Sequence record: MW748999.1
DNA length: 64,000 nucleotides
Reading direction: 5' to 3' (one strand)
Origin: Escherichia phage vB_EcoM_Skers
Shown: positions 48,368 through 48,998 of the stretch, one piece after another
Layout of the letters: each line of letters opens with the position of its first letter
Position numbering within the stretch: position 1 is the first letter of the stretch
Made by a program: the position numbers and the translations under genes
The notes under the pieces: generated by a model
Database searches by the model: none
The model's input: only the letters and a program-made list of their open reading frames with translations
Told to the model about the DNA's origin: nothing

Positions 48368-48599
48368 TTTGATTATATTTTATTCACGTCCATTTGTATA
48401 GTAGTGTTTGAATCGACCTTTGCTAAACTAGTTAAACATAGTAACCAATTCACCATCCCTTCCAATGATAACCCTTCCTCGTCTTAGACGGGTCTTCCGA
48501 TTCGGCAGTAATTGAACACGCGAAAGTATGAGGAAGCCAAATAGTTGTGTTAATGCTAGTATTCTTTTACTTCTGGTATGCATCCCACAGTGACTAACA

Positions 48600-48998
48600 T
48601 TAAGCCAGTCGAGTGAGTTTATAAATTGTTTTAAAGCATAGAGCTTTGATATCGTCTAAAACGCTCTGTAACGAGCTATCAACATCATTATAAATCTCAC
48701 TAGCCATTTGCGTTAACTCTTGCAAATAGGCAATTTCGCTAATCTCCTTGCGGACGACCAACGTTGGTTGATAATGACCAGTGATCCCAATATTGGTTTC
48801 AGTGAAATTATCAACCAATTCTTGCATTTCAATATAGAACTCTTCTAGAGCCTTATGTTTTGCATAAGATCCAGGACCAGTTACCCCAAAATGCGCAGAA
48901 TGCATATAAGTAACACTCATCAGACATTCACCAATAAAGCGGTCAACTTTATTAGCGTTCCCATCTTCGGACGTCTTTCGAAAATCACTGAATTTCAT
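48600..48998 (-). CDS. Dps/ferritin-like protein (start at MKFSD; track ORF is extended)
   Basis: HSAHFGVTGPGSYAKHKALEEFYIEMQELVDNF resembles the Dps ferroxidase-site pattern (H..HW.V.G..F...H...EE...E). Confidence 0.4.
   Translation of the reverse strand: MKFSDFRKTSEDGNANKVDRFIGECLMSVTYMHSAHFGVTGPGSYAKHKALEEFYIEMQELVDNFTETNIGITGHYQPTLVVRKEISEIAYLQELTQMASEIYNDVDSSLQSVLDDIKALCFKTIYKLTRLA

What the first reader, a model, noticed from the sequence alone, without database searches (positions are those of the whole stretch)
48373..48998. Dps/ferritin-like gene followed by a 227-nt untranslated spacer
The ORF starting MKFSDF has a block (HSAHFGVTGPGSYAKHKALEEFYIEMQELVDNF) resembling the Dps ferroxidase/dimer-interface region, which is unusual in a T4-like phage. 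Downstream of its stop there are ~227 nt (48373-48599) without a credible ORF before the next terminator/promoter cassette, an atypically long gap for this genome. It could be a structured 3' UTR, an sRNA or a decayed gene.
Basis: partly seen in the sequence, partly recalled or inferred. Interest (0 to 1): 0.45.

Follow-up and report, generated by a model that had tools for sequence, protein, structure and literature searches.

The report
Phage Dps-like gene plus gene-deletion scar
The ORF is the conserved T4-family gene rI.-1, which does look like a small Dps-type iron-binding protein, and the 227-base "spacer" after it is the dead remnant of a large Hoc-like capsid-decoration gene that a few sister phages still carry intact; both are ordinary rather than surprising.

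Summary
The window is an RB49-like Krischvirus (about 98% identical to RB49). All genes here are on the minus strand.

**The ORF.** MKFSDF... (48600-48998) is rI.-1 (Pfam DUF5856, PHROG 858).
- All five Dps ferroxidase ligands align (H36, H48, E52, D63, E67). Four of them are essentially invariant in 150 divergent family representatives.
- It is not unusual. tblastn finds it in 1,422 phage records, including T4 and T2, and RefSeq already gives it a Dps-derived label.

**The spacer.** The 227 nt (48373-48599) are a deletion scar.
- Six Krischvirus phages, and a more divergent metagenomic relative, carry a ~715-aa gene exactly here. It encodes about six Ig-like domains plus a Hoc-type C-terminal domain.
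- The window keeps only codons ~1-41, ~620-631 and the last 12 codons plus the stop.
- The start is mutated (ATG>ATA), there is a frameshift and premature stops, and there are two deletions. One deletion lies between GGTCGATTC direct repeats.
- The scar varies about as fast as third codon positions and has indels. It holds no conserved small ORF, has no Rfam match, and shows no unusual folding (z=-0.79).

**Verdict.** The "decayed gene" option is right, the sRNA/structured-UTR option is unsupported, and interest is low.

The parts
48985..49281 (-). rI antiholin gene (context). Its 3' end overlaps the start of rI.-1 by 14 nt.
   Evidence: Pfam Antiholin PF24205 E=1.7e-23; PHROG 1246 lysis inhibition; annotated rI in RB49.
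48600..48998 (-). rI.-1 gene (132 aa): a compact Dps-like ferritin-fold protein, member of DUF5856 / PHROG 858.
48798..48902 (-). Codons 33-67 of rI.-1.
   Evidence: Ungapped phmmer alignment to B. brevis Dps 1n1q places these on H31, H43, E47, D58 and E62. H36, H48, D63 and E67 are conserved in 149-150 of 151 sequences; position 52 varies (N/D/E/G/Q). T4 RI.-1 has H33, H42, D46, D57 and E61.
48373..48599 (-). The 227-nt 'spacer'. It is the remnant (deletion scar) of a ~715-aa Hoc-like gene, passively lying between the rI.-1 stop and the terminator.
   Evidence: blastn and tblastn to the intact genes of G2248, Brandy and JK32.
48577..48579 (-). Former start codon of the lost gene, mutated from ATG to ATA. 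The former Shine-Dalgarno GGGGGA is now GTGGGA just upstream.
   Evidence: Alignment to G2248 and Brandy; coordinates. A new out-of-frame ATG at 48581-48583 is polymorphic (ATG/ATA) among 16 genomes.
48451..48576 (-). Remnant of codons ~2-41 of the lost gene (…INTTIWLPHTFACSITAESEDPSKTRKGYHWK). It has a 1-nt insertion near 48562-48563, which creates a TAG at 48556-48558 in the original frame. The deletion-1 junction (about 1.73 kb lost) lies at about 48450-48460.
   Evidence: 85% identity to the G2248 5' end; tblastn of residues 5-32 at 79-86% identity, E about 5e-6, in all scar-bearing genomes; frame translations; coordinates.
48410..48450 (-). Internal fragment of the lost gene (codons ~620-631, VTMFN*FSKGRF). 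GAG>TAG at 48428-48430. It ends in the 9-nt repeat GGTCGATTC (48410-48418), which is the junction of deletion 2 (222 nt, 74 codons).
   Evidence: 95% identity to Brandy segment 1919-1957. The same 9-mer occurs twice, 222 nt apart, in the intact genes. TAG/GAG is polymorphic among the scars.
48380..48409 (-). The last nine codons plus the stop of the lost gene (KHYYTNGRE*). Together with the GRF of the 48410-48418 junction repeat this gives the 12-codon C-terminal remnant GRFKHYYTNGRE*. The stop TAA is at 48380-48382.
   Evidence: 96-98% identity to the 3' ends of Brandy and G2248; translations; coordinates.
48345..48370 (-). Intrinsic terminator, shared with the phages that keep the intact gene. 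It ends the tk-rI-rI.-1 transcription unit.
   Evidence: 11-bp stem, 4-nt loop, T run; annotated as a terminator in several Krischvirus records; only 1 of 33 sites varies.
48303..48331 (-). Sigma-70 early-type promoter for the next gene cluster (69-aa gene 48064-48273).
   Evidence: TTGACA-17-CATAAT, 11 of 12 matches; annotated as a promoter in GEC-3S.

Best explanation
There are two unrelated things here.

(1) The ORF at 48600-48998 (minus strand) is rI.-1, a gene conserved across T4-like and Vi1-like phages. It follows the antiholin gene rI and overlaps it by 14 nt, which is compatible with co-transcription and translational coupling.
- Shown: its product is a shortened member of the ferritin-like superfamily and is closest to Dps. 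It has a four-helix bundle with the Dps-type inter-subunit ferroxidase ligands on helices A and B.
- Inferred: it oligomerises through the Dps-like two-fold interface, so that H36/H48/E52 of one subunit face D63/E67 of the next. It then binds and oxidises Fe(II), or binds another divalent metal, in the infected cell. This would buffer iron and peroxide chemistry during infection, and during the prolonged infection of lysis inhibition.

(2) The 227-nt spacer is what is left of a ~715-aa gene that once sat between rI.-1 and the terminator. That gene encoded about six Ig-like domains followed by a Hoc-type C-terminal domain, so it was presumably a capsid-decoration protein.
- Shown: the gene was inactivated (start ATG>ATA, 1-nt frameshift) and then lost about 90% of its length through two deletions, about 1.73 kb and 222 nt. 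The second deletion lies between 9-nt direct repeats. Phi1 carries a different, independent deletion of the same gene.
- Inferred: because the terminator lies downstream, the scar is probably transcribed as an accidental 3' UTR of rI.-1 and has no function of its own.
For: **rI.-1 identity and spread**
- 98% DNA identity to RB49 and the same annotation.
- DUF5856 and PHROG 858 matches.
- Homologs in 1,422 phage records, including T2 and T4.
- 1,886 cluster representatives at 50% identity with E<=1e-3.

**Dps relationship**
- phmmer against the PDB: the top 8 hits are all Dps, NAP or Dlp, with best E=5.4e-5.
- AF2 model with pLDDT 87 and four helices.
- Of the top 50 Foldseek hits, 48 are Dps or Dps-like.
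- All five ligand positions align without gaps to the B. brevis Dps H31/H43/E47/D58/E62.
- H36, H48, D63 and E67 are conserved in 149-150 of 151 sequences.
- His31, Asp58 and Glu62 are the conserved metal ligands of the Dps ferroxidase centre (PMC8389677).

**Scar**
- 6 of 58 Krischvirus records have an intact 712-715-aa ORF between rI.-1 and the same terminator.
- The window matches its 5' end, an internal piece and its 3' end.
- Disabling mutations and junction microhomology are visible in the alignment.
- Phi1 has a non-nested alternative deletion.
- A divergent contig (rI.-1 70% identical, large gene 58% identical) keeps the order tk-rI-DUF5856-715-aa gene.

**Neutral behaviour of the scar**
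- Nucleotide diversity (pi) is 0.0315, against 0.026-0.089 at third codon positions and 0.000-0.021 (mostly 0.005-0.02) at first and second positions of the flanking genes. There are three single-base indel sites.
- The 51-aa ORF is unique to this window.
- No Rfam match; folding z=-0.79.

**Nature of the lost gene**
- AF2 predicts a beta-sandwich array plus a C-terminal domain.
- Foldseek hits to multi-Ig proteins at E about 1e-18.
- The C-terminal 68 residues are 32% identical to T4 Hoc residues 307-370 (BLASTP E=7e-7, hhalign E=9e-6).
- PHROG 1149 'Hoc-like head decoration'.
Against: **For iron chemistry**
- No biochemical data exist.
- The protein is 15-35 residues shorter than cellular Dps, and the model shows no BC helix in the 74-87 loop.
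- It falls far below the curated NCBIfam Dps threshold (16.7 against 114 bits) and has no Pfam Ferritin (PF00210) hit at E<=1.
- The fifth ligand position (52) is variable across the family.
- Assembly into a dodecamer could not be tested.
- The only published functional data (T4, overexpression genetics) point to a modulatory role in lysis inhibition together with RIII, with no mention of metals (PMC2962797).

**For the scar being functionless**
- Transcription was not measured.
- With about 3% divergence among the genomes, the power to detect weak constraint or covariation is low.
- The whole 3' region including the terminator folds somewhat better than shuffles (z=-2.39). This disappears when the terminator is removed.
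Confidence: 0.85

Rival explanations
1. RI.-1 keeps the Dps fold but no longer handles iron. It acts purely as a protein-protein adaptor that modulates RIII/RI/T-holin in lysis inhibition.
For: In T4, co-overexpression of rI.-1 with rIII prolongs lysis inhibition and relieves RIII toxicity (PMC2962797). The gene is always next to rI and overlaps it. The protein is shortened and lacks a predicted BC helix. It fails the curated Dps thresholds.
Against: Four metal-ligand residues (H36, H48, D63, E67) are essentially invariant in 150 representatives that otherwise share under 50% identity. That is hard to explain without metal binging. The genetic evidence is overexpression only. The family also occurs in Vi1-like phages (Det7, Ag3); whether those phages carry rI was not examined here.
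Confidence: 0.3
2. The 227-nt spacer is a functional structured 3' UTR or a 3'-UTR-derived small RNA.
For: It lies between a stop codon and an intrinsic terminator, so it should be transcribed. The same scar is present in 50 of 58 Krischvirus records. Folding z=-2.39 when the terminator is included.
Against: Every part of it is homologous to coding sequence of a gene that is intact in sister phages. There is no Rfam hit near the gathering score; the best is 22 bits against 55. Folding z=-0.79, with 42 of 200 shuffles as stable, once the terminator is removed. pi=0.0315, at the low end of third-codon-position values, with three indel sites. Phi1 has a different remnant and six phages have none.
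Confidence: 0.04
3. The spacer encodes a small protein: the 51-aa ORF at 48428-48583, or the 30-aa ORF at 48373-48465.
For: The 51-aa ORF has an ATG 17 nt after the rI.-1 stop. Some depositors annotate a small CDS in this region.
Against: The 51-aa reading frame is unique to this window, caused by a 1-nt deletion. Eight of the 15 other genomes have a 44-aa version ending differently; six lack the ATG (ATA) and one carries a different, longer ORF. The ORF is out of frame with the ancestral gene. It has no PHROG hit.
Confidence: 0.02
4. The 715-aa gene is a recent insertion in six phages, and the 227-nt spacer is the original empty site.
For: Only a minority of records (6 of 58) carry the gene. 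The intact alleles are unusually divergent at 58-78% aa identity.
Against: The 'empty' site contains the gene's 5' end (with a mutated start and a frameshift), an internal 40-nt fragment and its 3' end. Phi1 retains a different, non-nested subset of the gene. Deletion junctions sit on direct repeats that are present in the intact gene. A divergent outgroup contig has the gene at the same position.
Confidence: 0.02

Closest known systems
T4 RI.-1 (gene rI.-1 / mobD.6; Pfam DUF5856; PHROG 858)
   Same: Same family (73.8 bits). Same position directly after rI in the tk-rI-rI.-1 cluster. Same N-terminus MKFSDF and same ligand set: T4 has H33, H42, D46, D57, E61. Similar length, 129 against 132 aa.
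   Different: Only about 32% identical to T-even proteins. The window protein has a 3-residue insertion (GPG, residues 41-43) in the A-B loop. This restores the canonical Dps H-x11-H spacing and explains why it hits Dps directly in sequence searches.
Bacterial Dps mini-ferritins (e.g. B. brevis Dps 1n1q, S. aureus 2d5k, Y. pestis 4dyu, Listeria innocua Dps)
   Different: It is 15-35 residues shorter, with helices C and D shorter and no BC helix in the model. It has no Lys-rich terminal tail. It falls below the curated Dps/Ferritin family thresholds. Dodecamer formation and iron chemistry are untested. It is encoded by a virulent phage next to a lysis-timing gene.
Hoc (highly immunogenic outer capsid protein) of T4 and RB49, as parent of the scar
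   Same: The intact homolog has tandem Ig-like domains followed by a C-terminal domain homologous to T4 Hoc residues 307-370. PHROG 1149 'Hoc-like head decoration'.
   Different: It is about twice as long (about six Ig-like domains against three). It sits in the early tk-rI region, not next to gene 24. Only 15 sequence clusters are known. In this window it is a non-functional remnant of about 200 nt.
Deletion scars and pseudogene remnants in hyperplastic regions of T4-like genomes
   Same: Loss of an accessory gene between conserved neighbours. Deletion end-points lie at short direct repeats. Presence/absence is polymorphic among close relatives.
   Different: Nothing unusual. It is simply a well-documented case, with two independent deletion alleles and intact alleles available for comparison.

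Membership tests
[quoted passage not shown] | Ferritin-like four-helix bundle (A-B hairpin, long crossover loop, C-D hairpin) | tested here: met
[quoted passage not shown] | Inter-subunit ferroxidase-centre ligands (His31, His43, Asp/Glu47 on one subunit; Asp58, Glu62 on the other; Listeria / B. brevis numbering) | tested here: met
   H36, H48, E52, D63 and E67 align ungapped to H31, H43, E47, D58 and E62 of 1n1q. Four of the five are invariant in 149-150 of 151 family sequences. For the ligand roles see PMC8389677. That they lie at a subunit interface is inferred, not shown.
[quoted passage not shown] | Passes the curated family models (Pfam Ferritin PF00210; NCBIfam Dps PRK09448) | tested here: not met
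   No PF00210 hit at E<=1. NCBIfam Dps scores 16.7 bits against a cut-off of 114. Pairwise and profile hits to Dps in the PDB are significant but modest (E=5e-5 single sequence, 2e-3 profile).
[quoted passage not shown] | Short BC helix in the crossover loop at the two-fold interface | tested here: not met
   DSSP on the model shows no helix between residues 74 and 87, where pLDDT is about 80-85. This is model-based only.
[quoted passage not shown] | Hollow dodecamer with 23 symmetry; Fe(II) oxidation and mineral core; (in some) DNA binding | not testable with these tools
   Only single-chain prediction is available. No biochemistry.
T4 RI.-1 family (Pfam DUF5856 / PHROG 858) | Profile match above the curated threshold | tested here: met
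   PF19174 at 73.8 bits against 34.6. PHROG 858 E=6.2e-43 over the full length.
T4 RI.-1 family (Pfam DUF5856 / PHROG 858) | Located immediately downstream of the antiholin gene rI in the tk region | tested here: met
   The order tk (49345-49941), rI (48985-49281), rI.-1 (48600-48998). The same order is seen in RB49, T4 and a divergent contig.
Pseudogene / deletion remnant | An intact homolog at the same locus in close relatives, and disabling lesions in this copy | tested here: met
   Intact 712-715-aa ORFs in G2248, Brandy and JK32, and full-length matches in three more records. Here: start ATG>ATA, +1 frameshift, TAG stops, and deletions of about 1.73 kb and 222 nt.
Pseudogene / deletion remnant | Evolves without purifying selection | tested here: inconclusive
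   pi=0.0315 and 12.8% variable sites, comparable to third codon positions (0.026-0.089) and above first/second positions (0.000-0.021, mostly 0.005-0.02). Three indel sites across 16 genomes. Consistent with neutrality, but divergence is low.
Hoc-like head decoration proteins (parent gene of the scar) | Tandem Ig-like domains plus a C-terminal Hoc capsid-binding domain | tested here: met
   AF2 beta-sandwich array over residues 1-605 plus a C-terminal alpha/beta domain of low confidence. Foldseek multi-Ig hits at E about 1e-18. C-terminal homology to T4 Hoc 307-370 (E=7e-7 BLASTP; hhalign 83%, E=9e-6). PHROG 1149. Capsid binding itself was not testable.
Known structured RNA / sRNA families (Rfam) | Covariance-model match at or near the gathering score; thermodynamic stability above background | tested here: not met
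   The best Rfam hit is 22 bits against a gathering score of 55, and it overlaps the terminator. z=-0.79 for 48373-48602. A covariation test is not feasible at about 97% identity.

The most novel reading that the evidence does not exclude
The RI.-1/DUF5856 family could be a true virus-encoded, miniaturised Dps: a 115-135-aa ferritin-fold protein with an invariant His-His-Asp-Glu centre, found in over 1,400 sequenced T4-like and Vi1-like phages. Its metal or peroxide chemistry would then be coupled to lysis timing, through its translational linkage to the antiholin rI. That would give T4 lysis inhibition an unrecognised iron/redox input and define a new compact class of mini-ferritin. In the paper library searched here, no study connects T4 rI.-1 to Dps or tests this.
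Probability: 0.3. Interest if true: 0.6.

Novelty: already known. Interest (0 to 1): 0.22.

Why it matters
For this window it mostly clears things up. The 'odd' Dps-like gene is a standard T4-family gene that already carries a Dps-derived database label. That label, 'starvation-inducible transcriptional regulator', is misleading, because nothing here suggests a transcription factor. The long gap is genome decay, not a regulatory RNA.

Two modest points are worth keeping:
- The Dps ferroxidase ligands are strictly conserved across a very large phage family whose only experimental link is to lysis inhibition. This makes a cheap biochemical test worthwhile: metal binding, oligomeric state and ligand mutants.
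- Krischvirus phages are polymorphic for a long Hoc-paralogous Ig-repeat protein, with intact, Phi1-type and RB49-type alleles. This offers a natural series for studying gain and loss of capsid-decoration genes, and a clear example of microhomology-mediated deletion in T4-like genomes.

Tried and rejected
- **Rfam** E-value scan of 48200-48700: only sub-threshold hits, driven by the terminator.
- **ARAGORN** on the whole window: no tRNA or tmRNA.
- **Second genomic 'place'** matching the spacer in most phages: it is only a copy of the terminator (window 36171-36210), not a repeat of the scar.
- **Small ORFs** in the spacer: no PHROG hit and not conserved.
- **Pfam and NCBIfam** on the intact 714-aa protein: nothing significant.
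- **Profile of 20 close rI.-1 homologs against the PDB**: weaker (E=2e-3) than the single sequence, although Dps still ranked first.
- **IMG/VR scan with rI.-1**: only 9 loci. The 56%-identity relatives have unrelated genes downstream, so they did not help date the 715-aa gene.
- **Longer DUF5856-containing proteins** (302-1,934 aa), scanned for fused domains that might hint at function: only DUF5856 was recognised.
- **Literature searches** for DUF5856, or for a Dps/ferritin link to T4-like phages: nothing relevant.
- **tblastn with the C-terminal domain of the 715-aa protein**: it reached only Hoc-like proteins of Klebsiella phages weakly (E about 2e-3). It did not settle whether phages with the intact gene also keep a canonical hoc.
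- **Crude intergenic-gap census**: it contains artefacts (ATG-only starts, one spurious plus-strand ORF), so it is used only qualitatively.
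Full report
**Where we are.** The 901 bases around the finding are 98% identical to phage RB49, and 58 Krischvirus (Straboviridae) records match. All genes in this stretch are on the minus strand:
- tk, 49345-49941
- rI antiholin, 48985-49281 (Pfam Antiholin, E=1.7e-23)
- the MKFSDF ORF, 48600-48998
- 227 nt with no credible ORF
- an intrinsic terminator, 48345-48370
- a near-consensus sigma-70 promoter, TTGACA-17-CATAAT, 48303-48331
- a 69-aa gene, 48064-48273

A crude gene call gives a median intergenic gap of about 21 nt, with very few gaps of 200 nt or more, so the gap is long for this genome.

**The ORF is rI.-1.** RB49 annotates the same ORF as rI.-1. It matches Pfam DUF5856 (73.8 bits, cut-off 34.6) and PHROG 858 over its full length (E=6e-43). 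T4 has the same gene in the same place and with the same N-terminus, MKFSDF.

tblastn finds the protein in 1,422 phage records. These include T-even phages and T4-like phages of Klebsiella, Aeromonas and Yersinia, and also Vi1-like phages such as Det7 and Ag3. An exhaustive HMM search finds 1,886 cluster representatives at 50% identity. The claim that such a gene is unusual in a T4-like phage is wrong.

**Is it Dps-like? Yes.**
- A plain phmmer search of the PDB returns Dps proteins as the top hits: B. brevis Dps 1n1q at E=5.4e-5, S. aureus 2d5k at 5.8e-5, then B. anthracis Dlp-1/2, H. pylori NAP and MrgA.
- The AlphaFold model built on 20 homologs has pLDDT 87 and pTM 0.80. It shows four long helices (17-38, 44-73, 88-103, 108-131), with a long crossover loop between the second and third. 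This is the ferritin topology.
- Foldseek against the PDB ranks Dps structures in 48 of the top 50 places (prob 1.0, TMq up to 0.74).
- The ungapped alignment to 1n1q puts H36, H48, E52, D63 and E67 on H31, H43, E47, D58 and E62. His31, Asp58 and Glu62 are described as the conserved metal ligands of the Dps ferroxidase centre (PMC8389677).
- In an HMM alignment of the query with 150 divergent representatives, H36, H48, D63 and E67 are conserved in 149-150 of 151 sequences. Position 52 varies among N, D, E, G and Q.
- T4 RI.-1 has H33, H42, D46, D57 and E61.

**Caveats on membership.**
- The protein is shorter than cellular Dps.
- The model has no BC helix.
- It does not reach the curated thresholds of the NCBIfam Dps model (16.7 against 114 bits), and it has no Pfam Ferritin hit.
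- Dodecamer formation and iron chemistry cannot be tested here.

I therefore describe it as a compact, Dps-like member of the ferritin superfamily (family DUF5856), not as a bona fide Dps.

The RefSeq/PHROG label 'starvation-inducible transcriptional regulator' appears to derive from this Dps similarity. It should not be read as evidence for a transcription factor.

The only functional study found is T4 overexpression genetics. It suggests that RI.-1 modulates RIII-dependent lysis inhibition, and it does not mention Dps (PMC2962797). Searches for DUF5856 or for a Dps link to T4-like phages found nothing.

**The spacer is a deletion scar.** A sensitive blastn of the spacer against phage genomes shows three classes among the 58 Krischvirus records:
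- 50 records carry the same about 281-nt stretch (96.5-98.9% identity).
- Phi1 matches only at the two ends.
- Six phages (G2248, Brandy, SSG23, SFHK24, UPWr_E1, JK32) match only at one or other edge of the stretch (G2248 the rI.-1-proximal part, the other five the terminator-proximal part).

In those six phages a 712-715-aa ORF fills the space between rI.-1 and the very same terminator. It starts about 22 nt after the rI.-1 stop.

Aligning the window with the intact genes shows the following, in transcription order (coordinates):
1. The old ribosome-binding site and start codon, now ATA instead of ATG (48577-48579).
2. Codons ~2-41 of the gene at 83-85% identity. A one-base insertion near 48562 throws the frame into a TAG at 48556-48558.
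3. A junction at about 48450-48460, where about 1.73 kb is missing.
4. A 40-nt internal fragment (codons ~620-631, 95% identical to Brandy) with GAG>TAG at 48428-48430.
5. The 9-mer GGTCGATTC (48410-48418). It occurs twice, 222 nt apart, in the intact genes and marks a second, repeat-mediated deletion.
6. The last 12 codons, GRFKHYYTNGRE, and the stop TAA (48380-48382), at 96-98% identity.

tblastn with the intact protein independently recovers residues 5-32 in every scar-bearing genome (E about 5e-6).

**Direction of the change.** Three observations exclude the reverse scenario, in which the gene was inserted into an originally empty site:
- Phi1 carries a different remnant. It has a single deletion between two GAAGACCCG (Glu-Asp-Pro) sites and keeps the last 90 or so codons. 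That remnant is not nested with the RB49-type scar, yet it shares the ATG>ATA change and the frameshift.
- This pattern suggests inactivation first, followed by independent deletions.
- A metagenomic contig from a more distant relative (rI.-1 70% identical, large gene 58% identical) keeps the order tk-rI-DUF5856-715-aa gene.

**What the lost gene was.**
- The intact protein has no Pfam or NCBIfam match.
- It hits PHROG 1149, 'Hoc-like head decoration', at its C-terminus.
- AF2 (pLDDT 76) predicts a chain of beta-sandwich domains up to about residue 605, then a small C-terminal domain of low confidence.
- Foldseek matches six-Ig-domain proteins at E about 1e-18.
- Residues 634-701 are 32% identical to T4 Hoc residues 307-370 (BLASTP E=7e-7; hhalign E=9e-6).

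The parent gene was therefore a long Hoc paralog. Only 15 sequence clusters of it exist in a 5.8-billion-protein collection. Its alleles are much more divergent (58-78%) than the neighbouring genes.

**Does the scar do anything now?** I aligned 16 scar-bearing genomes over 2.1 kb.
- The scar has 29 variable sites in 227 (12.8%), nucleotide diversity (pi) of 0.0315, and three single-base indel sites.
- Third codon positions of the five flanking genes have pi of 0.026-0.089. First and second positions have 0.000-0.021 (mostly 0.005-0.02). The terminator has 1 variable site in 33.
- The 51-aa ORF exists only in this window, because of a private 1-nt deletion. Among the other 15 genomes, eight have a 44-aa version, six have no ATG and one has a different, longer ORF.
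- There is no Rfam match near threshold and no tRNA.
- The folding z-score is -2.39 with the terminator but -0.79 without it.
- The second genomic match to the spacer is just another copy of the terminator.

Everything fits a neutrally drifting remnant that is transcribed only because the terminator lies beyond it. Transcription itself was not measured.

**Verdict.** The gene is the already-annotated, widely conserved rI.-1. Its Dps-like nature holds at the level of fold and ligands but is biochemically untested. The spacer is a decayed Hoc-like gene, not a regulatory RNA. Interest is low. The residual interest lies in the untested possibility that the RI.-1 family is a functional viral mini-ferritin tied to lysis timing.

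Noticed in passing
window 36171-36210 and 48330-48370: The terminator hairpin with its flank occurs twice in the window at 95% identity. This explains the 'second place' that the spacer query hit in most Krischvirus genomes.
   Followed up: partly
L003:475-2619, L004:2551-4698, L005:3049-5187, L029:4001-6148: The intact 712-715-aa Hoc-paralogous gene is far more divergent between phages (58-78% aa identity) than its neighbours (rI.-1 70-97%). It is present in only 6 of 58 Krischvirus records. This suggests a fast-evolving, dispensable surface protein. Whether these phages also keep a canonical hoc was not resolved.
   Followed up: partly
window 48064-48273 (RB49 locus L001:2410-2574): RB49 RefSeq annotates the gene after the promoter as 54 aa, whereas this window and most relatives have 69 aa. 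The multi-genome alignment shows single-base gap columns at about 48118 and 48272.
   Followed up: no
window 48372-48400 (minus strand): A promoter-like site, TATACA-17-TATAAT (10 of 12 matches), directly abuts the terminator. It lies in the last codons and 3' flank inherited from the lost gene, so it is probably a chance match in AT-rich sequence.
   Followed up: no
L001:267-1043 (RB49 45367-46143), about 2 kb downstream of the finding: A gp38-like tail-fibre adhesin gene sits in this early-gene region in RB49-type phages. JK32 annotates it as 'tail fiber adhesin'.
   Followed up: no
L029:6246-8040: In the divergent metagenomic relative, the 715-aa gene is followed by a DNA methylase (PF00145) and a Dmd homolog. 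This differs from the RB49-type gene content downstream of the terminator.
   Followed up: no
P0056-P0170 (e.g. P0072, 1,934 aa; P0119, 1,439 aa): Some DUF5856-containing predicted proteins are very long, but no other Pfam domain is recognised in them. They may be read-through gene calls or fusions in metagenomic phages.
   Followed up: partly
L022:1173-1619 (PTE-Eco09) and window 48600-49097: An upstream in-frame ATG gives a 165-aa ORF here, and PTE-Eco09 annotates a 148-aa version. Homologs, including T4, start at MKFSDF, preceded by GGAG, so the long forms are probably mis-annotations.
   Followed up: partly
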